From a virus (lineage: Duplodnaviria > Heunggongvirae > Uroviricota > Caudoviricetes), in the IMG/VR virus record IMGVR_UViG_2698536687_000001: a DNA stretch of 64,000 nucleotides; one strand, 5' to 3'. This document shows, in pieces, positions 469 through 52,661 of the stretch. Each line of letters starts with the position of its first letter. Positions within the stretch are counted from its first letter, which is position 1. Below the pieces are notes generated by a model, which was not told the DNA's origin, searched no databases, and saw nothing but the letters and a program-made list of their open reading frames with translations. A program made the translations under genes and the position numbers.

Positions 469-886
469 TTAACACTCAGATAATGGTTTTAAGTAAAGTG
501 TACAGGATCGGCTCTGCCTTTACCTGTTTATGGTTCTCGTCATAGAAACGCCAGCGACCGCGCGTGCGTTCTATTTTCTCTTCACCGCGCGATAATGACA
601 GTTGACAACTATCACGATCAAACCCTTTTGCCCGCCAGTAACCACGGTTTTTCTCAAGCTCAATATGAGTGGACACTTTAGCAGCTGAATATCCCATTTT
701 TCACCTCTGATTGATTGGTGGTGCTAAGTGCGCTACGCAAAATCTGGAGCACTAACACTGCCAACATTTCGCAGATTTTACGTAGCGCAACCTTGATCAA
801 ATGATCAAGTGATCACTATTTGACCTGATAAGGTATTGAACTGTATGGATTTACAGGTAAATTGATCATATTCAATAACCCTTAAG

Positions 887-920
887 ATAACTTCGTATAA
901 TGTATGCTATACGAAGTTAT
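887..920. other. loxP: loxP recombination site (13-bp inverted repeats around 8-bp spacer)
   Basis: Exact 34-mer ATAACTTCGTATA ATGTATGC TATACGAAGTTAT read directly in the sequence. Confidence 0.97.
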
Positions 921-963
921 CAGGTCCGAAGAGGAGTTTACGTCCAGCTGCGCACAAAAATCA

Positions 964-980
964 ATAATTATTAGAGCAAT
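964..980 (-). promoter_or_regulatory. C1 repressor operator-like 17-mer (Op99-type)
   Basis: ATAATTATTAGAGCAAT, 2 mismatches to reverse complement of recalled P1 C1 operator consensus ATTGCTCTAATAAATTT. Confidence 0.6.
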
Positions 981-1046
981 AAATTTTGAGAGAAAAATCC
1001 CACTCCACCAGCTAAAAACTGGATTGTTTTTCATAGTTGTTTGACA

Positions 1047-1063
1047 ATTGCTCTAATAAATTA
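1047..1063 (+). promoter_or_regulatory. C1 operator-like 17-mer overlapping a candidate sigma70 promoter upstream of coi
   Basis: ATTGCTCTAATAAATTA (1 mismatch) directly after TTGACA at 1041-1046 and followed by TATAGT at 1062-1067. Confidence 0.7.
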
Positions 1064-1301
1064 TAGTTTTGCCGCCGTTACGTAATACGACTTTGGATTC
1101 ACTATTTAATGTGTCTTCAGCGTTGTAGAGCGGCTCAGAAGGAAATGAGCAAACAGGGAAACCTTATACAACGGCATTACAGCTATGCATTGCTCATCTT
1201 ACACACAGCGCAATGTTGTTAGATTACCCCAGCATGGATCATGGGTGAAACAGTAGGTCAGAGCTTCAGGCTCTGTGTTGTCAATACAGTGAGGCATAAT
1301 T

Positions 1302-1511
1302 ATGGCTTTCATTCAACCAACCATCGACGACGTTAGACATTGCTCTAACGCTTTATCTGTAGACCCTGCCGAAACCGACGCTGCCCGCGCCATTGCTGAA
1401 CACTACTCAAAGATATCCAATCAGGAGTACCGCATCACCCAAGACGACCTGGATGACCTCACTGACACAATCGAATATCTCATGGCAACTAACCAGTTAG
1501 ACTCACAATAA
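1302..1511 (+). CDS. coi: Coi-like protein (C1 inactivator), 69 aa
   Basis: 69-aa ORF immediately upstream of c1 and downstream of operator-overlapped promoter; size and position match P1 coi as recalled. Confidence 0.75.
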   Translation: MAFIQPTIDDVRHCSNALSVDPAETDAARAIAEHYSKISNQEYRITQDDLDDLTDTIEYLMATNQLDSQ

Positions 1512-1527
1512 ATGCACTAATAAATCT
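1511..1527 (+). promoter_or_regulatory. Weak C1 operator-like site between coi and c1
   Basis: AATGCACTAATAAATCT, 3 mismatches to consensus. Confidence 0.35.
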
Positions 1528-1621
1528 ATTATTTTTGTTTGATCCCTCTATAATATAGGTCAGTAATGACCGGTTTTCTCAGCCGGGCGTTATTGACCAT
1601 GTCAATTCTGGAGGAGGATCA

Positions 1622-2473
1622 ATGATAAATTATGTCTACGGCGAACAACTGTACCAGGAGTTCGTCAGCTTCAGGGATCTCTTTCTAAAAAAAGCTGTTG
1701 CACGCGCCCAACACGTTGATACAGCCAGCGACGGTCGTCCTGTACGCCCGGTTGTCGTTCTACCGTTCAAAGAAACTGACAGCATTCAGGCTGAAATTGA
1801 TAAATGGACTTTAATGGCGCGGGAACTGGAACAGTACCCAGACCTCAATATCCCAAAGACTATTTTATATCCAGTGCCTAACATCCTTCGCGGTGTGCGC
1901 AAGGTTACAACTTATCAGACAGAAGCTGTGAACAGCGTCAACATGACCGCTGGCCGCATTATTCATCTGATTGATAAGGACATTCGCATCCAAAAAAGCG
2001 CGGGGATCAATGAGCACAGTGCGAAATACATAGAGAACCTGGAAGCAACAAAAGAGCTAATGAGGCAGTACCCGGAGGATGAAAAATTCCGTATGCGCGT
2101 ACACGGCTTTAGCGAAACAATGCTGCGCGTCCACTACATTTCCAGTAGCCCTAACTACAATGATGGTAAATCAGTTAGTTACCATGTGCCACTGTGTGGC
2201 GTGTTTATCTGCGATGAAACTCTCCGTGATGGAATTATCATCAACGGTGAATTCGAAAAAGCAAAATTTAGCCTTTATGACTCCATAGAACCGATCATCT
2301 GCGACCGCTGGCCGCAAGCAAAAATATATCGCCTGGCAGATATTGAAAATGTAAAAAAACAAATTGCCATCACTCGCGAAGAGAAAAAGGTTAAGTCAGC
2401 CGCATCAGTTACGCGCAGCCGTAAAACCAAGAAGGGGCAGCCAGTAAACGACAACCCCGAAAGCGCGCAATAA
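1622..2473 (+). CDS. c1: C1 master repressor of lysogeny, 283 aa
   Basis: 283-aa ORF with strong RBS GGAGGAGG; sequence MINYVYGEQLYQEFVSFRDLFLKK... recognised from memory as P1 C1; many C1 operator-like 17-mers across the window. Confidence 0.88.
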   Translation: MINYVYGEQLYQEFVSFRDLFLKKAVARAQHVDTASDGRPVRPVVVLPFKETDSIQAEIDKWTLMARELEQYPDLNIPKTILYPVPNILRGVRKVTTYQTEAVNSVNMTAGRIIHLIDKDIRIQKSAGINEHSAKYIENLEATKELMRQYPEDEKFRMRVHGFSETMLRVHYISSSPNYNDGKSVSYHVPLCGVFICDETLRDGIIINGEFEKAKFSLYDSIEPIICDRWPQAKIYRLADIENVKKQIAITREEKKVKSAASVTRSRKTKKGQPVNDNPESAQ

Positions 2474-2482
2474 ATTATGCCC

Positions 2483-2748
2483 NNNNNNNNNNNNNNNNNN
2501 NNNNNNNNNNNNNNNNNNNNNNNNNNNNNNNNNNNNNNNNNNNNNNNNNNNNNNNNNNNNNNNNNNNNNNNNNNNNNNNNNNNNNNNNNNNNNNNNNNNN
2601 NNNNNNNNNNNNNNNNNNNNNNNNNNNNNNNNNNNNNNNNNNNNNNNNNNNNNNNNNNNNNNNNNNNNNNNNNNNNNNNNNNNNNNNNNNNNNNNNNNNN
2701 NNNNNNNNNNNNNNNNNNNNNNNNNNNNNNNNNNNNNNNNNNNNNNNN
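2483..2748. other. Assembly gap (266 N)
   Basis: Run of n characters; flanked on both sides by sequence that is repeated 1.8 kb downstream. Confidence 1.
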
Positions 2749-3427
2749 CCGGTTGCTGTTCTTTTTGTCGGAAGTAGCTGTCTTCCAGTTTTTCAAAGAA
2801 TGCCCATGCCTGATCGGTTTCGAGCATTTTAGCGTGACGGGCAGCTCCTCGTTCTGTCCAGAGGATGAGAGAGCGCGCTTTGGGGGAGACTGGATTTTGT
2901 GAGTAGTTTAAAGCTACCCGCAAATTTTTCAGCTCATCGCCAATAACCTTGAAAAAGTGCTTCGCTTCAACAAAGCGTACTTTGTTCTCATGATGATTCT
3001 GGCGAATGCGAATCGCTTCTGTACCATACCCCTTAGCAAGAGTTTCGGTTGTTACGACACGCACTCCCTGCCACTCCAGAACGGGAATTTCATCCGGCTG
3101 ATTCTGAACAACCACCAGTTCCGATTCCTGAACTGAAGGTGCATAAATTTTTTCTGATTTAACGTTAGTTGCTTTCATTCTGTGTGCCTCCTTGCGTGCT
3201 TCGGCTGCGACGGTTGCGTAATTCAGATGACCCTGTTCGAGCAGGTATTCACGGATATCGGTTAGCAGAATGCGGTGAACCGCGTTTTTGTCCTTTCTCC
3301 GGTAAAGTTGTTTGGTGATCATGAAGTAGTTGGCAATAACGCCAGGTATATCCCTGGTACTGATACAGGCAGTGTGCTGTTCAATTGCCTCGATCATCTC
3401 TTCACGGGTAACTAACGATGTTCTCAT
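2749..3427 (-). CDS. Antirepressor-like protein, copy A, N-terminal 226 aa only; 3-prime part lost in gap
   Basis: ORF runs into the N-run; first 133 aa identical to copy B (4145-5257), central segment diverged. Confidence 0.6.
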
Positions 3428-45967: not shown

Positions 45968-46549
45968 ATGGCACCTATACCTTTTGGGGTTTACAGCCAG
46001 GCTGACGGTGTATCGCCATTTCTGAAAGTTACTTTAACGAACTCTCAGTACCAGGTTACCGGATATATCAGCCAGGGGGCGGCAATGAATCTGGCCCAGA
46101 ATTGGGAAGCGCCGTTTACCGGCATGTCTATGGGTTCTGTTGCTGGTGCATTTAGTGGTTTTGCGCAGGTTGGTACTGAAACAACGTCAGTTGCCCGTTG
46201 GAACAGCTTAATGGTTTGGGAAGGGGGGACACCGCCGACTTTCACGCTGCCAGTAACTTTCATTGCTTTGTTTAACCCATATACGGAAGTTTCAGGTGCT
46301 ATCGCCGCGTTGTCAGCAATGATTAGCCCGGAACTTAAAGACGCCAGTATTGGTGGTCGAATCCCGGAGCGTGTGACGCTAAACATTGGTCGCCGGATCA
46401 ACATCATTGATGTCGCTATCCAGGACCTAAGTTTCGATCTCGATGCCCCCAGGGATAGTAATGGGCATTTCCTGAAAAACACCGTCAACCTCCAGTTGAC
46501 CGGTTCATCGATATATAACAGTTCCGATATTGTTCGGGCCTTCCAGTAA
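45968..46549 (+). CDS. Putative tail tube protein, 193 aa
   Basis: Size (about 21 kDa) and position after sheath-like gene. Confidence 0.4.
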   Translation: MAPIPFGVYSQADGVSPFLKVTLTNSQYQVTGYISQGAAMNLAQNWEAPFTGMSMGSVAGAFSGFAQVGTETTSVARWNSLMVWEGGTPPTFTLPVTFIALFNPYTEVSGAIAALSAMISPELKDASIGGRIPERVTLNIGRRINIIDVAIQDLSFDLDAPRDSNGHFLKNTVNLQLTGSSIYNSSDIVRAFQ

Positions 46550-46560
46550 AAGGATTTTAT

Positions 46561-47070
46561 ATGGGGCACAATAACACTAAGGGAAACCGTAAATTTATTA
46601 AGGGCCGCTATACTGCCAACGCGGCCAAAGGCGAACGACTCGTATCTTCTGAATTCCAGCTCACTTTTGCAGGCCATGAAGATATCAGCGTACTGGTCCG
46701 CACGTCGCAGATCCCTGAAATGACCCGTGAGGATGTGGAGGACTATGGTCCGAATGGTGTGAAGTTCAACCAGCACGGTCCAATCCGTAACTCCGGGGAA
46801 ATCCAGGTCCAGTGCGTGGAGACTATCGAAGGCGATATTCTTCAGTTCATTAAAGATCGCATTGCGGCGAAGGACTATGTTGATATCACGATGGCTGCGA
46901 CCCCTGAATCCAAATCTTCCGGGGTTAACGCTGTGACAAAAGCTGCTACAACAATTGAAATGTTGGACTGCAAAATCTACAGTGATGCAATCGACTTTAG
47001 TACTGAAGATGTGACTGCCGCTGTGCGCCCGTCACTTCGTATCGTTTACAACTGGATTGAGTGGGATTAA
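46561..47070 (+). CDS. Hypothetical virion protein, 169 aa
   Basis: Last ORF of structural operon, followed by intrinsic terminator. Confidence 0.4.
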   Translation: MGHNNTKGNRKFIKGRYTANAAKGERLVSSEFQLTFAGHEDISVLVRTSQIPEMTREDVEDYGPNGVKFNQHGPIRNSGEIQVQCVETIEGDILQFIKDRIAAKDYVDITMAATPESKSSGVNAVTKAATTIEMLDCKIYSDAIDFSTEDVTAAVRPSLRIVYNWIEWD

Positions 47071-47091
47071 GAGTCATCCCTTGTATTTTAA

Positions 47092-47113
47092 AGCTCCTTC
47101 GGGAGCTTTTTTG
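47092..47113 (+). terminator. Intrinsic terminator
   Basis: Hairpin AGCTCC-TTCG-GGAGCT followed by TTTTTT. Confidence 0.75.
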
Positions 47114-47153
47114 TGCTTAAATTATGCCGGTATAGATAGATTTTGAGCATGTT

Positions 47154-47450
47154 ATGGAAATTGATTTTTCATACTCTCCTGAGACGATAGAAAGAAGATT
47201 CGAAATAATTGGATGCATAACTATTTCAGATGAGCATTATTGGGTTCTCTATGATGCCAATACATGGTTATGTGCCTTAGCAGAATGTCAGCCATCGTTA
47301 TGTGTAGGGGAGGGGGCTTTTCGACATAAGGTGCTGGCTACACTTGAAGTGAACACGTTACGATATTGGTGTGTAGAAATACTTAGTGATAACAAAGAAT
47401 TGCATTTATTATTGCTGAATAAGTGTGCTTCTCTGCGCAGAAAAGCATGA
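47154..47450 (+). CDS. Hypothetical protein, 98 aa (AT-rich island)
   Basis: ORF in low-GC segment between structural operon and repL. Confidence 0.4.
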   Translation: MEIDFSYSPETIERRFEIIGCITISDEHYWVLYDANTWLCALAECQPSLCVGEGAFRHKVLATLEVNTLRYWCVEILSDNKELHLLLLNKCASLRRKA

Positions 47451-47576
47451 GAAAACCCAACCGCTCTCCAGGAATTATCAGAAGAATATATGCGGAAAGT
47501 TATAGCTAGCTATTGAAAAGCTAAAGTAGATCGGTTAGATTTGACTTACTCATCTACCATGTGTAGAAAGAGCGAT

Positions 47577-47620
47577 CGAACCCGATACATAGCAATATGT
47601 GTCGGGTTCAGCTTTTTTAT
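47577..47620 (+). terminator. Hairpin terminator between convergent island genes
   Basis: GAACCCGA...TCGGGTTC stem followed by T-run 47613-47618. Confidence 0.5.
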
Positions 47621-48096
47621 GTCCCAAGTGCTCTTTTTCTGCTTTGTTTGAGTGTTCTGATTTTACTGTCATAGGTTACAACATAGGCTGTTTTGAGAAG
47701 CCAATAGTCTCTACGTGCGGATAGCACAACAACGTAGTTTTCACACTCATTCCAGATTACCCACTCTTCAGTTGGTCCTCGTCTTTCAGACCAACATGAT
47801 ATATCGCAATGGTTATAATTCCTTATCATATGCGCGATCCAGCGAATTCGCTTGCACCGTTCAAGATCGGGTATACGTTCTTCTTCTTTTTTTCCCTCTG
47901 ATACTAAATGCCAAAATCCGAACTCTTTCCCATCATATTCCGGTGAATAACGTAATCGAACAGGGAGACCCTTAAACGTTATATTAGAGATTAAAATGTC
48001 TTCTCTGACAATATCATATACATCGTCTATATACTCTTGCCAACTTCCATTGAAGTACAATAAATCTGGCATTTGAAGCATCAGCGAGCCTCCCAC
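47617..48096 (-). CDS. Hypothetical protein, 159 aa (AT-rich island, downstream gene of pair)
   Basis: Overlaps upstream gene by 16 nt; Cys/His/Trp-rich; no domain recognised. Confidence 0.5.
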   Translation of the reverse strand: MGGSLMLQMPDLLYFNGSWQEYIDDVYDIVREDILISNITFKGLPVRLRYSPEYDGKEFGFWHLVSEGKKEEERIPDLERCKRIRWIAHMIRNYNHCDISCWSERRGPTEEWVIWNECENYVVVLSARRDYWLLKTAYVVTYDSKIRTLKQSRKRALGT

Positions 48097-48785
48097 ACGA
48101 AAATATTAAATTTACTTTCTGTTGGAAGAGTGCTTTTTAGTAACTCCCTGTTTGTATGTGATTTTATCCTGTTTATGACTTGGATTTTTCCCGCGTTGCT
48201 ATTCATTCCTCGATGAACGTAGCCTAATGCACCAATGAAAAGATCCGTTAGCTGCAATTGTTGCACTTCATGAGATCGTATATGTTGAATTCTGTTTATC
48301 GACTCATGATTGTAATCATAGCGATCATTGTGAAGAACCCCTCTTAATTTCTCAATTTTTTCAATACCTAAAGTATCTTTTATATCTAGGTAGATATTGT
48401 ATGTGTTGTTACTTTCTATTATGTTTTTTAAGACATAAAAAAACATCTTATAATAGAAAGTATTATGATCTTGATGGAATCGAGCATGGTCCAGTTGCTC
48501 TTTATCAGGAACAACAACACCTCTAAAGCGCAATGCTGGGTTGCTGAAGAAGTAATCTACGACATCTAAGTAAAATTCAACTTTGGACGCAGATACTTTA
48601 GTCCACTTGATTTCGAAATCAGGTTTTAGATTGTGTTTTAATTTTAATTCCTTGATGTCTCTAGCAATTTTTTTTGTGATAGTGCCAGGACACCAAAGCG
48701 CACCCAATACCATGACTTTATTATGATCATTTAGTAGGTGACAGGATTCATCGCAGAATACATTAAATGTTCTTCGGTTCAACAT
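48081..48785 (-). CDS. Hypothetical protein, 234 aa, possibly DUF3800-like (AT-rich island, upstream gene of pair)
   Basis: N-terminal FNVFCDESCH resembles the conserved DES motif of DUF3800 from memory; unverified. Confidence 0.5.
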   Translation of the reverse strand: MLNRRTFNVFCDESCHLLNDHNKVMVLGALWCPGTITKKIARDIKELKLKHNLKPDFEIKWTKVSASKVEFYLDVVDYFFSNPALRFRGVVVPDKEQLDHARFHQDHNTFYYKMFFYVLKNIIESNNTYNIYLDIKDTLGIEKIEKLRGVLHNDRYDYNHESINRIQHIRSHEVQQLQLTDLFIGALGYVHRGMNSNAGKIQVINRIKSHTNRELLKSTLPTESKFNIFVWEAR

Positions 48786-48933
48786 GTTAACTCCACTTAT
48801 TGTTAGGTAGAATTGTCCGTTAGTTGTTTATTAATTGCAATAATGGGACGTTCTGATTTGCTAACTACGTCATCTTACCAGGACGCCTATGAGTTTTCCT
48901 CATGGCAAACTAGAGGTGTTGAAAGTATGCATG

Positions 48934-48950
48934 GTTATAATTAGAGCAAT
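48934..48950 (-). promoter_or_regulatory. Weak C1 operator-like site upstream of the island gene pair
   Basis: GTTATAATTAGAGCAAT: core ATTAGAGCAAT intact, 5 flank mismatches. Confidence 0.3.
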
Positions 48951-48953
48951 CTA

Positions 48954-49799
48954 TCACCCTCTGAATCCTACCGGTATACCCCATTGTTCGTTATCTTTAT
49001 TTTTGGCTAATACCGCATTAAGAGCTTCGTTTACCGTCATGCAATGCGGTAGATTATCGAAGTTTGATATCCAGCCAATATCAGGAGAACGCTTGTTCTT
49101 CAGGTAAGCATATTTCCGCGCTGCCGCCTCTACTTTCTGCTTGAACTCATGTTTTTGAGCGCGTTTTTTGGATAACCGCAGATTGTCAGCCTTTGCTTTT
49201 GCCTCAGTGATCCATGAAGTCAGTTTTTTGAGGCTGGTCGTTCCGGTACCGCCGGAAACTGATCTTTTTGTTTTTTTAATTTGTGACTTCTTATTCTTTA
49301 TTGCCACGTCATCCTGACAGGGGGAGGGGGTATCATTTTGACATGGGGGTGTGGATAAAAAATCAAATAAAGCCAATGTGTTAGCGAGAACAGCTTTAAC
49401 CTTGGTTGCCGCTGAAGAGATCTTTAATTTGCTTTCAATCAGCGCATTTTTGGCTTGTTGTGCGAAGGCCAAAAAGGATGGTGTAAACCGGTACAGGTTA
49501 GCGCGACGTTCACGGTGATCGCCGATAACAATCTCTACAGACAGGATTCCTTTGTTTACAGCTTCACGGAATGCACGAACGACGGTTGATTGGCTATAAC
49601 CAGTTTCTGCCGCGATCAGGCGGTGAGGCTTGTGAATGAAGTATTCACTGGTTGTTGCCGCGAGATTTGCACATTGCGACAGGATATGCCCGGCGCTACG
49701 GGATAGACCGGAGTGTGTTACAAAGCAGGCCAATTCATAGCCAGAAAAAGTAAAATCGCTCATCGTTATACAGCTCAGGAAAGTGACTTTAGCCAGCAT
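48954..49799 (-). CDS. repL: Lytic replication protein RepL, 281 aa
   Basis: 281-aa ORF downstream of a kilA-like gene and C1-operator-controlled promoter; organisation and size match P1 kilA-repL. Confidence 0.75.
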   Translation of the reverse strand: MLAKVTFLSCITMSDFTFSGYELACFVTHSGLSRSAGHILSQCANLAATTSEYFIHKPHRLIAAETGYSQSTVVRAFREAVNKGILSVEIVIGDHRERRANLYRFTPSFLAFAQQAKNALIESKLKISSAATKVKAVLANTLALFDFLSTPPCQNDTPSPCQDDVAIKNKKSQIKKTKRSVSGGTGTTSLKKLTSWITEAKAKADNLRLSKKRAQKHEFKQKVEAAARKYAYLKNKRSPDIGWISNFDNLPHCMTVNEALNAVLAKNKDNEQWGIPVGFRG

Positions 49800-49828
49800 T
49801 ACAATGCTGGTGGTTCTTACTACGTCTG

Positions 49829-50629
49829 TTAGCGCGTCGCCGCGACAGGCACCAGCACACCAGCATCAAGCAATCGCTTCATAAGCCACTGCTGACCTTT
49901 GCCGGTTATACGAGTCGTGAAAGAAATCCTGCTTCCATTGCTTGTATCGATCACGGTTTCTTTAAGGGTGAAATACCCACGGGATATGTATTCTTGTTTG
50001 GGGACGTTCCTGCGTTCACCGGTTGCGATCAGAATTCCGTTATCACGCAACCAGGTGAAGAGATAGTTTTGGCCCAGGCCGAGCACTTTGGCATAGTTGC
50101 CGATTAGAACCCCGCTGGCGGTAGCAACGCGTTCGGCGAATTCGACTTTAGGTGCATCCATAAGCATTTTTTGCTCCAGCCGTTGCTTTTGCTCTGCCAG
50201 GTCGGCAGCCAAACGGAGAGCTTCAGGGAGACTCTGCGGAATAGCAGGTTGTAATCTTCCAGCTCGATAGTCGATAAATGTCTGGTTTACCTTCAGCCGA
50301 AACGCGGGAGAAATCCAGCCTGCGTACTCCACAGCGAGCAATTCATGGGCAAAAGTGCCGCCGCCACGGCCTTCGAACGAAACTATGCAATTCTGCATAG
50401 TTTCTTTTTCAAGCTCTTCGATGAGCTGTTTGGCTGACAGCGTTCTTAGCCATTGAGCTGGCGCTTTATGGGCACCGAGTCCGCTCGCTCTGTGTAGAGC
50501 ATTAAGGTTGTAACGGCCAGCGCGGTCGGTCGTAATTTCAACACCACAAATAACAGGCAGAGTGGTTGAAGGATCGACATTTTGATGAAGGTTTGATATA
50601 TTCATATCCGCATTGAATGTTTGTTGCAT
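49829..50629 (-). CDS. kilA: KilA-like protein (KilA-N plus KilAC/ANT domains), 266 aa
   Basis: C-terminal [18 protein letters not shown]...PKVEFAERV...GYFTLKET paralogous to ant-like genes. Confidence 0.6.
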   Translation of the reverse strand: MQQTFNADMNISNLHQNVDPSTTLPVICGVEITTDRAGRYNLNALHRASGLGAHKAPAQWLRTLSAKQLIEELEKETMQNCIVSFEGRGGGTFAHELLAVEYAGWISPAFRLKVNQTFIDYRAGRLQPAIPQSLPEALRLAADLAEQKQRLEQKMLMDAPKVEFAERVATASGVLIGNYAKVLGLGQNYLFTWLRDNGILIATGERRNVPKQEYISRGYFTLKETVIDTSNGSRISFTTRITGKGQQWLMKRLLDAGVLVPVAATR

Positions 50630-50793: not shown

Positions 50794-51831
50794 TTAACCT
50801 ATTGCTACTGGTTTTAACAAACCAGCATCAAGTAGCTTGCGAGTTAACCACTGCTGGCCTTTACCCGTTAATTGGGGCGTCAGCCGTATCTGGTAGCCAT
50901 TTTCATCATCCAGCACCACTTCTTTCACCGTGAAATACCCGGCGTTAATGTACTGCTGGCGCGGTACGTTTTTGCGCGCACCAAAAGCCATGAGAATGCC
51001 GTTCTGGCGCAACCATGAGAAAAGGGCGTTTTGCTTAAGTCCAACGACCTTTGCAAAGTTACCGATCAGGATTCCATTAGCCACTGATACCCGGTCGGCA
51101 AAATCGACTTTAGGTGCTGCGGCCACCAGCTGTTGTTCCAGATGCATTTTCTGTTCTGCCAACTCGGCAGCCAGGCGTAGGGCTTCTGGTAATGTTTGGG
51201 GGATCGATGGGGTAGGGGAGTTTGCCTGCTGCAATTCTTCCAGTTTGTCGATCAGCGAACGGCGGACAGCTTTTGATTCGCGCGCGGCGACTCGCAGGGC
51301 TTGTTTGTAGGTCATGGTTATGACAAGCATTGATGTTTTGTTCATTTTTTCCACTACACTTTTTGTGTAGTGCTCACCATCAAGCTCATCGAGTATTTTT
51401 TCGATGAATTTGTTGTTCCGAACCTCTGGTTCCCCACATAACTTACGCGCTTCATTGACCATCTTTAACAGTGTCTGGCTGTCGATTGTGTCTCCAGTGT
51501 TGGAGATAACATTCACAGTTGGTGATGGCGTAGCTAAAGCAACAGGTGCTGGTTTTTCAACATTCAAATTATTACCGGTCATTCTGCGCGCCTCCTTTCT
51601 CATTTCTGCTGCCACCGTTGCGTAACGTAGACGTCCTTGTTCAATCAAATAATCCCTGATCTCGGCTATCAGTAGCCTGTTGATCACAGCCTTATCTGTT
51701 CGGGTATAAAAACGCCTGGTTATCATGAAATAGTTGGCAATTGCGCCGGGGATCTCCCGTGTCGGCATACAGGCAGTATGCAGGGCGATCGCTTCGGCTA
51801 TGTCATTACGGGTGACGAGAGGTTTTTTCAT
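50794..51831 (-). CDS. Antirepressor Ant-like protein, 345 aa
   Basis: KilAC/ANT-type C-terminus nearly identical to copy B; preceded by icd-like ORF and c4-like region. Confidence 0.65.
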   Translation of the reverse strand: MKKPLVTRNDIAEAIALHTACMPTREIPGAIANYFMITRRFYTRTDKAVINRLLIAEIRDYLIEQGRLRYATVAAEMRKEARRMTGNNLNVEKPAPVALATPSPTVNVISNTGDTIDSQTLLKMVNEARKLCGEPEVRNNKFIEKILDELDGEHYTKSVVEKMNKTSMLVITMTYKQALRVAARESKAVRRSLIDKLEELQQANSPTPSIPQTLPEALRLAAELAEQKMHLEQQLVAAAPKVDFADRVSVANGILIGNFAKVVGLKQNALFSWLRQNGILMAFGARKNVPRQQYINAGYFTVKEVVLDDENGYQIRLTPQLTGKGQQWLTRKLLDAGLLKPVAIG

Positions 51832-52206: not shown

Positions 52207-52355
52207 ACAAAAATACCGCAATATCGGATATCTGCGGCTGTCCGCACAATCATTCAGGCTGCTAAACCCGGTCGCAGAATTTGCTACGACGGCGGAACTA
52301 TAAGCCTGAACGATTAAAAGGTCAATATGATGCGAAAAGATAGCATTCGTGACTT
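52207..52355 (-). ncRNA. Candidate C4-like antisense RNA, copy C
   Basis: Between operator 52364-52380 and a hairpin plus U-run (plus 52207-52237); repeated GUUUAGCAGC motif on the minus-strand RNA. Confidence 0.3.
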
Positions 52356-52363
52356 AAAAATAC

Positions 52364-52380
52364 AAATTTATTAGAGCAGA
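52364..52380 (-). promoter_or_regulatory. C1 operator-like site upstream of immI-like cassette C
   Basis: AAATTTATTAGAGCAGA, 2 mismatches. Confidence 0.6.
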
Positions 52381-52661
52381 TTAGTGTCGTGCAATAGATA
52401 TATTATTTGTGATGAAAAATAATGCAGAGGGATATTGTAACTTTAAGATGGATATCAATAGTCGATACATAAATTAAGTTAGCAATAAACTATTAACTTA
52501 AGAAATAATGCAGATGGTGAACTTGTCTCTGACTTTTCAGCTATACACAATAAGTTAGGGATAGCTTATAAAAAGTTGATTAATTGATATAAGTCAATGG
52601 GAGTATTCTTGTTTACTTTCCGTTCTCGTGGTAACTTCTCGCCGGTTTTTGTTTTTCTGGG

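What the first reader, a model, noticed from the sequence alone, without database searches (positions are those of the whole stretch)
47114..48950. AT-rich three-gene accessory island between the tail operon and repL: candidate novel defence or abortive-infection module
Between the terminator that ends the structural operon (47092-47113) and repL lies a visibly low-GC segment. It holds a 98-aa plus-strand ORF and a convergent minus-strand pair: a 234-aa protein with an N-terminal DES-containing motif (FNVFCDESCH, possibly DUF3800-like) and a 159-aa Cys/His/Trp-rich protein, overlapping by 16 nt. A degenerate C1 operator-like core sits just upstream of the pair. The composition, the position at a module boundary and the absence of any recognisable phage function are typical of horizontally acquired anti-phage cargo.
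Basis: partly seen in the sequence, partly recalled or inferred. Interest (0 to 1): 0.7.

Follow-up and report, generated by a model that had tools for sequence, protein, structure and literature searches.

The report
P1/P7 rlfAB defence-candidate cargo cassette
The low-GC segment is the already annotated pmgF-rlfB-rlfA region of phage P7/P1, a swappable cargo slot whose rlfA-rlfB pair (an RNase H-like enzyme plus a small obligate partner) belongs to a catalogued but still untested anti-phage defence candidate (PADLOC PDC-M04), not to the replication machinery its name suggests.

Summary
The window is phage P7 (99.6% identity). The three ORFs are P7 upf52.1/rapB/rapA, which are P1 pmgF/rlfB/rlfA. 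RlfB is 154 aa (ATG at 48081) and overlaps the rlfA stop by 1 nt, not 16. The "degenerate" operator is the annotated C1 operator Op55/Op(rap), with an exact 11-nt core.

The segment 47113-48939 has the lowest GC in the window (0.372 against 0.470). It is a replaceable slot: only 98 of 681 P1-like plasmids carry it, and the others hold hokD, Lom and other cargo.

Both proteins match PADLOC PDC-M04, one of 145 untested candidates. CRISPRi shows all three genes are dispensable for P1 plaque formation.

Verdict: an accessory cassette that is probably defensive. It is already annotated and catalogued, and its function is unproven. pmgF is a separate unit. Interest is moderate.

The parts
47090..47113 (+). 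Intrinsic terminator after bplB. This is the left boundary of the replaceable slot.
   Evidence: Hairpin of 8 pairs plus a T-run. Homology with hok-type and SJ46-type P1 relatives ends exactly after the T-run, at 47112.
47113..48939 (.). Replaceable low-GC cargo segment, holding pmgF and the rlfAB cassette.
   Evidence: GC 0.372, the lowest in the window. Present in 98 of 681 P1-like plasmids and in 121 of 5426 complete E. coli genomes. Replaced by hokD, Lom or other genes elsewhere.
47154..47450 (+). pmgF (P7 upf52.1), 98 aa. Function unknown. A separate unit from rlfAB.
   Evidence: Annotated in P1 and P7. No Pfam, NCBIfam or PADLOC hit; matches phrog_7349, function unknown. Residues 3-67 are 45% identical to the N-terminus of 198-210-aa proteins in alternative cargo versions. 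Dispensable for plaques, EOP 1.2.
47578..47619 (+). Hairpin terminator (14 pairs plus a T-run) between the convergent pmgF and rlfB genes. Its T-run overlaps the rlfB stop codon.
   Evidence: sequence read.
47617..48081 (-). rlfB (P7 rapB), 154 aa. PDC-M04B family. Obligate partner of RlfA, with a weak BECR/RelE-like RNase fold signal.
48081..48785 (-). rlfA (P7 rapA), 234 aa. DUF3800, PDC-M04A. RNase H2/HII-like nuclease fold.
48812..48840 (-). Promoter-like block carried by the cassette: TTGCAA, 17 nt, GACAAT. This equals the PrlfA promoter predicted in P1.
   Evidence: Annotated as a predicted promoter in P1. The same TTGMAM-N17-GAMAMT block is conserved in register upstream of rlfA homologues in Citrobacter, Cronobacter, Biostraticola and Scandinavium, where the flanks are unrelated; the fifth locus compared, L011, does not show it.
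48935..48950 (-). C1 repressor operator Op55/Orlf/Op(rap). A backbone feature at the right boundary of the slot.
   Evidence: Annotated in P1 and P7. Exact 11-nt core. The core is retained in the hok-type variant, where the cargo diverges immediately after it. It lies about 95 bp upstream of the cassette promoter block.
48954..49799 (-). repL, the lytic replication initiator that contains oriL. Context only, not part of the cassette.
   Evidence: Annotated in P1 and P7. Retained in P1-like plasmids that lack rlfAB.

Best explanation
The segment is accessory cargo sitting in a replaceable slot of the P1/P7 backbone. The slot is bounded by the bplB terminator on one side and the C1 operator next to repL on the other.

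The functional core is rlfA-rlfB, a self-contained two-gene cassette with its own conserved promoter block and translationally coupled genes (TGATG). It moves between phages, satellites, genomic islands and restriction-modification loci across many bacterial phyla.

RlfA is an RNase H2/HII-like nuclease of the DUF3800 family with an intact, invariant carboxylate set (D12-E13, D134, D137, Q178xxD181). RlfB is a small obligate partner with an invariant His and three Arg residues, and possibly a RelE/colicin-D-type (BECR) RNase core.

The cassette most likely acts as an anti-phage or anti-mobile-element defence of the nucleic-acid-targeting, abortive-infection type. In this model RlfA recognises or cleaves a nucleic-acid structure produced by an invader (inferred: an RNA:DNA hybrid or structured RNA), and RlfB acts as a ribonuclease effector or specificity subunit.

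Shown here: the anatomy, the mobility, the strict A-B linkage, the folds, residue conservation, the association with R-M/DISARM loci, and dispensability for P1 plaque formation. Inferred: the defence phenotype, the substrates, and which protein senses and which kills. pmgF is an unrelated neighbour of unknown function.
For: 1. Both proteins match PADLOC PDC-M04A/B (1e-95 and 5.8e-53). No validated system matches.
2. RlfB lies immediately downstream of an RlfA-type gene or domain on the same strand in 34/34 testable genome loci, 6/6 loci found by look-up, and 17/17 non-P1 viral contigs.
3. Context is defence-like and mobile. Among 96 ORFs (the two nearest on each side of the pair in 27 loci), type I R-M subunits are the commonest families: MTase_I 8, Specificity_I 5, REase_I 5. 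In L022, L025, L032 and L034 the ORF sizes and order place the pair beside or inside a type I R-M operon. One locus has a DrmMI (DISARM) methylase fused to an RlfA domain, followed by RlfB and lying next to Cas13a genes. Other copies sit in a P4-like satellite, an integrase island, and a prophage end next to ssrA.
4. In Citrobacter the pair sits next to a RhuM-domain gene. PDC-S05, which the authors describe as carrying a RhuM domain, gave phage protection in bioRxiv 10.1101/2024.09.26.614923.
5. The slot is variable. Only 98 of 681 P1-like plasmids carry the segment, and most others carry the hokD toxin gene there.
6. The segment has the lowest GC in the window.
7. rlfA, rlfB and pmgF are dispensable for P1 plaques, with EOP 1.3, 0.88 and 1.2 (PMC10695390).
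9. The promoter block is conserved with the cassette rather than with the P1 backbone.
10. DUF3800 recurs in other immune contexts: retron type VII (PMC7736814), Cas12a2/a3 loci (PMC10910872, PMC13594972) and Cas13 CASK loci (bioRxiv 10.64898/2026.08.25.746378).
Against: - No experiment has tested PDC-M04 or rlfAB. The searchable literature has no paper containing "PDC-M04", and the source preprint calls the 145 PDCs untested.
- Other PDCs gave mixed results: 4 of 8 positive in one study and 0 of 2 in another.
- In P1/P7 a genuine C1 operator lies upstream. rlfA/B are grouped and co-regulated with repL during P1vir infection (bioRxiv 10.64898/2025.12.28.696737). That fits lytic-phase expression better than classical lysogen-expressed defence.
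- About two thirds of the sampled loci have ordinary housekeeping neighbours.
- No DUF3800 protein has a demonstrated biochemical activity in the papers read.
Confidence: 0.55

Rival explanations
1. Toxin-antitoxin or addiction module. RlfB is a RelE/colicin-D-like RNase toxin held in check by RlfA. The cassette's main role is to stabilise the P1 plasmid prophage, or any element carrying it, by post-segregational killing, with no dedicated anti-phage function.
For: - The same slot holds the type I toxin gene hokD/mok in most P1-like plasmids.
- The genes are tightly coupled in a two-gene operon.
- Natural decay looks asymmetric. RlfA intact with RlfB truncated occurs in L049, in L067/L068 and in NZ_CP173116.1. 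The reverse occurs only in L027, a long-read MAG.
- SymE toxin genes lie nearby in Citrobacter.
Against: - RlfA is a 234-aa enzyme with an invariant active-site-like residue set. It is not a small DNA-binding antitoxin, and no HTH, RHH or Phd-like domain was found.
- Chromosomal copies embedded in R-M operons have nothing to stabilise.
- P1 already carries phd-doc (established knowledge of P1).
- The fold evidence for a toxin is weak.
- The decay sample is tiny. The model also overlaps with abortive-infection defence rather than excluding it.
Confidence: 0.15
2. Lytic-replication accessory, which is the original reason for the name rlf/rap. RlfA is an RNase H that processes the transcription-dependent R-loop or primer at oriL inside repL, with RlfB as a cofactor, and the genes are expressed with repL once C1 repression is lifted.
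For: - The genes lie directly downstream of repL/oriL on the same strand, behind a C1 operator.
- RlfA has an RNase H2-like fold.
- The genes are co-regulated with repL in P1vir RNA-seq.
Against: - 583 of 681 P1-like plasmids keep repL but lack rlfAB.
- Knock-down does not reduce plaque formation.
- The same pair occurs in 57 loci outside P1-like elements with no RepL nearby, across phyla with unrelated replicons.
- The cassette brings its own promoter, and the operator belongs to the backbone.
Confidence: 0.1
3. Counter-defence or inter-element competition factor used by the phage during lytic growth. For example, it could degrade host RNA:DNA signalling or guide molecules (retron msDNA, CRISPR R-loops), or attack co-infecting phages and satellites.
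For: - C1-operator control and lytic-phase expression.
- An RNase H-like enzyme could in principle destroy RNA:DNA hybrids used by host immunity (inference).
- The pair is carried by many phages and prophages: 31 IMG/VR contigs.
Against: - Many copies are chromosomal and embedded within host R-M/DISARM operons. That is where defence genes sit, not anti-defence genes.
- The pair is also carried by a P4-like satellite and an integrase island.
- It has no similarity to known anti-defence proteins in the scans run.
Confidence: 0.1

Closest known systems
PADLOC phage defence candidate PDC-M04 (Payne et al., bioRxiv 10.1101/2024.01.29.577857)
   Same: Both proteins hit the A and B models over nearly their full length (1e-95 and 5.8e-53). 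The two genes are adjacent on the same strand. The embedding in type I R-M and DISARM loci that defined the candidate was reproduced here independently.
   Different: Nothing structural differs; this is a member. PDC-M04 is a prediction only, with no phenotype, mechanism or name. Here it is carried by a phage-plasmid behind a C1 repressor operator.
P1 rlfA/rlfB and P7 rapA/rapB (GenBank NC_005856, AF503408)
   Same: The same genes, at 97.4% and 99.6% DNA identity.
   Different: The published label ("replication-linked" or "replication-associated") rests on position alone. The distribution, dispensability and context found here argue against it.
RNase H2 / RNase HII / RNase HIII enzymes
   Different: There is no sequence-level membership: only DUF3800 is hit, with no RNase_HII Pfam match. 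RlfA has extra invariant Cys, His, Lys and Gln residues (C11, C15, H16, C32, K60, Q178). It needs a dedicated partner protein. Its substrate is unknown.
Other DUF3800-containing immune modules: retron type VII, TPR-DUF3800 with Cas12a2/a3, and Csx32 of Cas13 CASK loci
   Same: The same domain, with the N-terminal DE and C-terminal QxxD motifs, in a defence context (PMC7736814, PMC10910872, PMC13594972, bioRxiv 10.64898/2026.08.25.746378).
   Different: There is no reverse transcriptase, ncRNA, TPR domain, kinase or Cas gene here. The partner is RlfB instead. No function for DUF3800 has been established in those systems either. None of the DUF3800-associated RNA motifs in Rfam is present.
BECR-fold RNase toxins (RelE, HigB, YafQ, colicin D tRNase, CdiA-CT, T4 RegB)
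   Same: These are RlfB's best structural neighbours. RlfB has a helix-helix-four-strand core and invariant His/Arg residues typical of metal-independent RNases.
hok/sok-type cargo in the same P1 slot
   Same: It occupies exactly the same position between the bplB terminator and the Op55 core, in the same orientation.
   Different: It is an unrelated type I membrane toxin with an antisense RNA.

Membership tests
PADLOC PDC-M04 (candidate two-gene defence system) | Protein A matches a PDC-M04A HMM | tested here: met
   PDLC04353, E 1e-95, residues 5-233 of 234.
PADLOC PDC-M04 (candidate two-gene defence system) | Protein B matches a PDC-M04B HMM | tested here: met
   PDLC04355, E 5.8e-53, plus 11 further M04B models.
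PADLOC PDC-M04 (candidate two-gene defence system) | A and B are adjacent on the same strand | tested here: met
   1-nt overlap (TGATG) at 48081. The same order holds in 57/57 other testable loci.
PADLOC PDC-M04 (candidate two-gene defence system) | Found embedded in or next to BREX, DISARM or type I R-M systems (the criterion used to nominate it) | tested here: met
   Type I R-M subunits are the commonest families among 96 ORFs flanking the pair in 27 loci, and gene order in L022, L025, L032 and L034 places the pair beside or inside such operons. One locus has a DrmMI-RlfA fusion. The P7 copy itself is not embedded.
Anti-phage defence system (functional class) | Reduces phage infection when present | not testable with these tools
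   No published test of PDC-M04 or rlfAB was found.
DUF3800 (Pfam PF12686) | HMM score above the gathering threshold | tested here: met
   54.2 bits against 21, profile positions 1-148 of 149.
DUF3800 (Pfam PF12686) | N-terminal DE motif and C-terminal QxxD motif (as described in PMC7736814) | tested here: met
   D12-E13 and Q178-L-T-D181. E13, Q178 and D181 are invariant in 53/53 relatives and D12 in 52/53.
RNase H2/HII-type ribonuclease | RNase H-like fold | tested here: met
RNase H2/HII-type ribonuclease | Four active-site carboxylates in the canonical spatial arrangement | tested here: inconclusive
   Conserved D12, E13, D134 and D181 lie at the end of strand 1, the end of a later strand, and in a helix, as expected. 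Model coordinates could not be superposed.
RNase H2/HII-type ribonuclease | Sequence membership and cleavage of RNA:DNA hybrids | tested here: not met
   No RNase_HII or RNase_H Pfam hit at E <= 0.1. Enzymatic activity cannot be tested here.
BECR/RelE-superfamily RNase toxin (for RlfB) | Significant fold similarity | tested here: inconclusive
BECR/RelE-superfamily RNase toxin (for RlfB) | Sequence-profile match to a known toxin family | tested here: not met
   No Pfam or NCBIfam hit for RlfB or 28 relatives. A profile search against PDB sequences found nothing below E 0.8.
Type II toxin-antitoxin system | Small antitoxin with a DNA-binding or neutralising domain, encoded next to the toxin | tested here: not met
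   The partner is a 234-aa enzyme-like protein with invariant catalytic-type residues and no HTH, RHH or Phd domain.
P1 lytic replicon (kilA-repL-oriL) | Co-inherited with repL and needed for lytic growth | tested here: not met
   Only 98 of 681 repL-flank-bearing plasmids carry it. CRISPRi EOP is 0.88-1.3.
C1-repressed P1 operon | C1 operator match | tested here: met
   Exact 11-nt core at 48940-48950 (-), annotated as Op55.
C1-repressed P1 operon | The operator overlaps the promoter that drives the genes, and C1 represses it in vivo | tested here: inconclusive
   The conserved promoter block lies about 95 bp downstream of the operator. Only an 8/12 sigma-70-like match (my own reading of the sequence) overlaps the operator, and the scan tool reported none. 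Repression in vivo cannot be tested here.

The most novel reading that the evidence does not exclude
RlfAB would be the founding, experimentally tractable example of a new immune mechanism. A DUF3800 RNase H2-like protein senses RNA:DNA hybrids or another replication or transcription intermediate of an invader. It then licenses a dedicated BECR-type ribonuclease (RlfB) to shut down translation.

This would give the first function for DUF3800. It would also explain why the domain recurs with retron RTs, Cas12a2/a3, Cas13 kinase modules, DISARM methylases and eleven different orphan ncRNA motifs. In P1 the cassette would be a C1-gated weapon, used when the prophage is threatened or induced.
Probability: 0.15. 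Interest if true: 0.75.

Novelty: already known. Interest (0 to 1): 0.35.

Why it matters
P1 is one of the most widely used phages in genetics, yet rlfA and rlfB still carry a "replication-linked" label that rests only on their position. The evidence here points to a mobile, R-M-associated two-gene cassette instead.

DUF3800 has been an unexplained domain since at least 2017. It turns up with retrons, Cas12a2/a3 and Cas13 accessory genes, and many orphan RNA motifs, and no activity has been shown for it.

The P1/P7 copy is native to E. coli, dispensable for phage growth, small (1.2 kb) and carries its own promoter. That makes it a convenient system for testing the PDC-M04 prediction and for giving DUF3800 a first function. 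The slot itself, running from the bplB terminator to the Op55 core, is also a defined site where P1-like phage-plasmids exchange toxin and defence cargo.

Tried and rejected
- **DUF3800-associated RNA motifs.** A permissive Rfam scan of 46500-50000 found nothing at E <= 1. A gathering-threshold scan of four related loci found only tmRNA and tRNA-Sec.
- **Leader RNA.** The 168-nt rlfA leader does not fold unusually well (z = -1.7).
- **Family searches.** Pfam and NCBIfam gave nothing for RlfB or PmgF. PDB sequence searches with a single sequence and with a profile gave nothing significant; a YefM antitoxin hit at E about 1 was dismissed as noise.
- **Fold searches.** Foldseek against PDB was not significant for RlfB. 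The afdb50 library was unavailable.
- **Source paper.** The P1 genome paper (PMC523184), which would give the original rationale for the name rlf, is not held.
- **Locus retrieval.** The wide RlfB alignment A5 was too diverse for locus retrieval, so A1 was used instead.
- **"Oxidoreductase" label.** NCBI's name for RlfB homologues has no domain support and was rejected.
- **Fusion variants.** Four longer RlfB-family proteins (188-255 aa: P0189, P0242, P0253, P0296) had no Pfam domains.
- **Natural gene decay as a toxin-antitoxin test.** The pattern is suggestive (RlfB is lost while RlfA is kept, at least three times), but there are too few cases and one counter-example comes from a long-read MAG.
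- **Retron type VII membership.** Rejected: no reverse transcriptase ORF lies nearby.
Full report
**Identity of the region**

Megablast of window 46500-49900 against phage genomes gives phage P7 (AF503408) at 99.6% over the full length, and P1 at 97.4%. In those records the three ORFs of the finding are already annotated:
- 47154-47450 (+) is P7 upf52.1, equal to P1 pmgF ("putative morphogenetic function").
- 47617-48081 (-) is rapB, equal to rlfB.
- The operator-like site at 48935-48950 (-) is the annotated monovalent C1 operator Op(rap)/Orlf/Op55.
- Downstream lie repL, kilA and ant. Upstream lies the tail/baseplate operon ending in bplB.

**Observation check**

The ORFs exist as described. 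The terminator after bplB is at 47090-47109 plus a T-run. GC of 47113-48939 is 0.372 against 0.470 for the window, the lowest of all same-size windows. Third-position GC is 0.31-0.34 against 0.44-0.53 in neighbouring genes.

There are three corrections.
- RlfB homologues are 154 aa, so the gene starts at the ATG at 48081 and overlaps the rlfA stop by one base (TGATG). The 159-aa, 16-nt-overlap version comes from taking the longest possible ORF.
- The operator core ATTGCTCTAAT is an exact match. It is one of 13 such sites in the window against 1.8 expected by chance, so it is not degenerate.
- pmgF does not belong with the pair (see below).

**A replaceable slot**

BLAST against P1-like genomes that lack the segment puts the breakpoints at 47112|47113, directly after the T-run of the bplB terminator, and at 48939|48940, directly after the operator core. 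The core stays with the repL flank.

In PLSDB, 681 records match the flanks but only 98 carry at least 80% of the query. Most of the others have hokD/mok in the slot. Some have Lom/Ail, IS elements, TnpB, or a 198-210-aa protein plus a small membrane protein. One has a CNF1 toxin gene after a truncated rlfA. Among 5426 complete E. coli genomes, 121 carry the segment, nearly always on plasmids.

The published literature already lists rlfA-rlfB-pmgF as a low-GC variable region of P1-like phage-plasmids (PMC9603915; PMC6906374).

PmgF residues 3-67 are 45% identical to the N-terminus of the longer proteins found in alternative cargo versions. None of the bacterial rlfAB loci sampled has a pmgF. 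pmgF is therefore a separate unit of unknown function.

**The rlfA-rlfB cassette**

RlfA matches Pfam DUF3800 (3.5e-14) and PADLOC PDC-M04A (1e-95). RlfB has no Pfam or NCBIfam family but matches PDC-M04B (5.8e-53). Its PHROG label, "replication protein", merely echoes the P1 annotation.

An exhaustive profile search finds 1757 representative clusters of RlfB relatives, nearly all standalone proteins of 150-190 aa.

The linkage between the two genes is absolute in the sample. An RlfA-type gene or domain lies immediately upstream on the same strand in 34 of 34 testable species-genome loci, in 6 of 6 loci obtained by exact look-up, and in 17 of 17 non-P1 viral contigs. These span Gammaproteobacteria, Saccharibacteria, Planctomycetota, Verrucomicrobiota, Chloroflexota and Acidobacteriota.

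A promoter-like block (TTGMAM, 17 nt, GAMAMT) sits in the same register upstream of rlfA in P7 (48840-48812). It equals the PrlfA promoter predicted in P1. The same block is present in four enterobacterial chromosomal copies whose flanks are otherwise unrelated; the fifth locus in the alignment, the L011 prophage-end copy, does not show it. The cassette therefore appears to carry its own promoter, while the C1 operator, about 95 bp further upstream, is a feature of the P1 backbone.

**Context elsewhere**

The pair occurs in several kinds of place:
- In Citrobacter, next to a RhuM-domain gene and SymE: once beside tRNA-Sec and once inside a P4-like satellite.
- At the edge of an integrase island in Cronobacter.
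- At a prophage end beside ssrA.
- After a DISARM-type DrmMI methylase whose C-terminus is an RlfA-like domain (35% identity), in a cluster with DrmD/DpdE-like helicases and two Cas13a genes.

I scanned 96 ORFs: the two nearest neighbours on each side of the pair in 27 loci. Type I R-M subunits were the most frequent families (MTase_I 8, Specificity_I 5, REase_I 5, HSDR_N 5), together with mads, MmeI-type IIG and Schlafen-like helicase hits. Gene sizes and order place the pair beside or inside a type I R-M operon in L022, L025, L032 and L034. This independently reproduces the "guilt-by-embedding" criterion by which Payne et al. nominated PDC-M04.

That preprint states that the 145 PDCs are untested. 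I found no paper mentioning PDC-M04. Other PDCs have given 4 of 8 and 0 of 2 positives. One positive was PDC-S05, which the authors describe as carrying a Virulence_RhuM domain, the same Pfam domain as the gene beside the pair in Citrobacter.

**Structure and residues**

Across 53 non-identical relatives, conservation is as follows:
- D12 and D134 are each conserved in 52.
- E13, D137, Q178, D181, H16, E58 and K60 are conserved in all 53.
- The single D12N/D134E exception is the DrmMI fusion.

H58, R75 and W81 are invariant in 54 of 54 sequences, and R69 and R78 in 53 of 54. That pattern suits a metal-independent RNase or a nucleic-acid-binding surface. I treat the RNase assignment as a lead, at roughly even odds.

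**Function**

P1 CRISPRi gives EOP 1.3, 0.88 and 1.2 for rlfA, rlfB and pmgF, so all three are non-essential (PMC10695390). It also weakens the "replication-linked" label.

The best-supported reading is a mobile defence-type cassette (PDC-M04). I put this at about 0.55. Within that reading, the specific model of RlfA as a nucleic-acid sensor or nuclease and RlfB as an RNase effector or specificity subunit is much less certain, at about 0.2.

Evidence that cuts the other way:
- The upstream C1 operator is genuine.
- rlfA/B are co-regulated with repL in P1vir infection.
- There is no phenotype at all.

The rivals are a toxin-antitoxin/addiction role, a true replication accessory, and a lytic-phase counter-defence or competition factor. 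For the toxin-antitoxin role, the slot usually carries hok, and natural variants lose RlfB while keeping RlfA in at least three lineages. The replication accessory rival fits the position and the RNase H fold but is contradicted by the distribution.

**Novelty and verdict**

The genes, the variable region and the candidate-system family are all on record, so the feature is already known.

What this analysis adds:
- The link between P1/P7 rlfAB and PDC-M04.
- The exact slot boundaries.
- The cassette-borne promoter as distinct from the backbone operator.
- The strict A-B linkage across phyla.
- The invariant residue sets.
- The tentative RNase-like fold of RlfB.

Interest is moderate. The finding is not surprising to a specialist, but it offers a convenient E. 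coli-native handle on the unresolved function of DUF3800.

Noticed in passing
window 800-3400: A second low-GC stretch (1827-bp windows at or below 0.40) carrying three C1-operator cores at 970-980 (-), 1047-1057 (+) and 1339-1349 (+). It may be another regulatory or accessory region of the phage.
   Followed up: no
window 52300-52600: A sharp GC trough (0.287 in a 300-bp window) a few hundred bases beyond the 345-aa ant1-like ORF (50794-51831).
   Followed up: no
L010:1-20471 (metagenome contig ERZ25070167): A DISARM-like cluster. Its DrmMI methylase (1556 aa) is fused at the C-terminus to an RlfA-like DUF3800 domain with D12N and D134E substitutions. An RlfB homologue with all conserved residues follows, and two Cas13a genes lie alongside.
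   Followed up: partly
L005:7774-11319 and L007:6920-11328 (Citrobacter): A RhuM-domain gene, the rlfAB homologues and a SymE toxin gene travel together as a block. It lies once beside tRNA-Sec and once after the primase gene of a P4-like satellite (Psu, Ogr/Delta, AlpA, D5-type primase). PADLOC candidate PDC-S05, described by its testers as carrying a RhuM domain, was reported protective in a 2025 preprint.
   Followed up: partly
L003:2114-2806; L015:772-2868; L082:3001-6426: The same P1 slot carries hokD/mok in most P1-like plasmids. In one E. coli assembly it carries a CNF1-type toxin gene after a truncated rlfA. The slot seems to collect toxin-type cargo.
   Followed up: partly
window 47154-47450; L014:943-1536; L004:2207-2836: PmgF (98 aa) looks like a short version of the 198-210-aa proteins that occupy the left side of the slot in other P1-like elements (45% identity over residues 3-67). 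None has a recognisable domain.
   Followed up: partly
proteins P0002, P0007, P0008, P0012, P0016 (RlfB homologues): NCBI names these "oxidoreductase". No Pfam, NCBIfam or structural evidence supports that name, so it is probably a propagated misannotation.
   Followed up: yes
L008:7718-9306 (Cronobacter): About 1.6 kb with no called gene between fis and the rlfA homologue, at the edge of an integrase island. The Rfam gathering-threshold scan found nothing there.
   Followed up: partly
L049:7983-8219; L067 and L068:6007-6246; NZ_CP173116.1 (hit H86): Natural variants keep an intact rlfA but have a truncated or interrupted rlfB. The reverse state was seen only in a long-read MAG (L027). This may hint that RlfB is the costly component.
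   Followed up: partly
window 47578-47619: The strong hairpin terminator of pmgF has a T-run that overlaps the rlfB stop codon, so the two convergent units share one terminator region.
   Followed up: no
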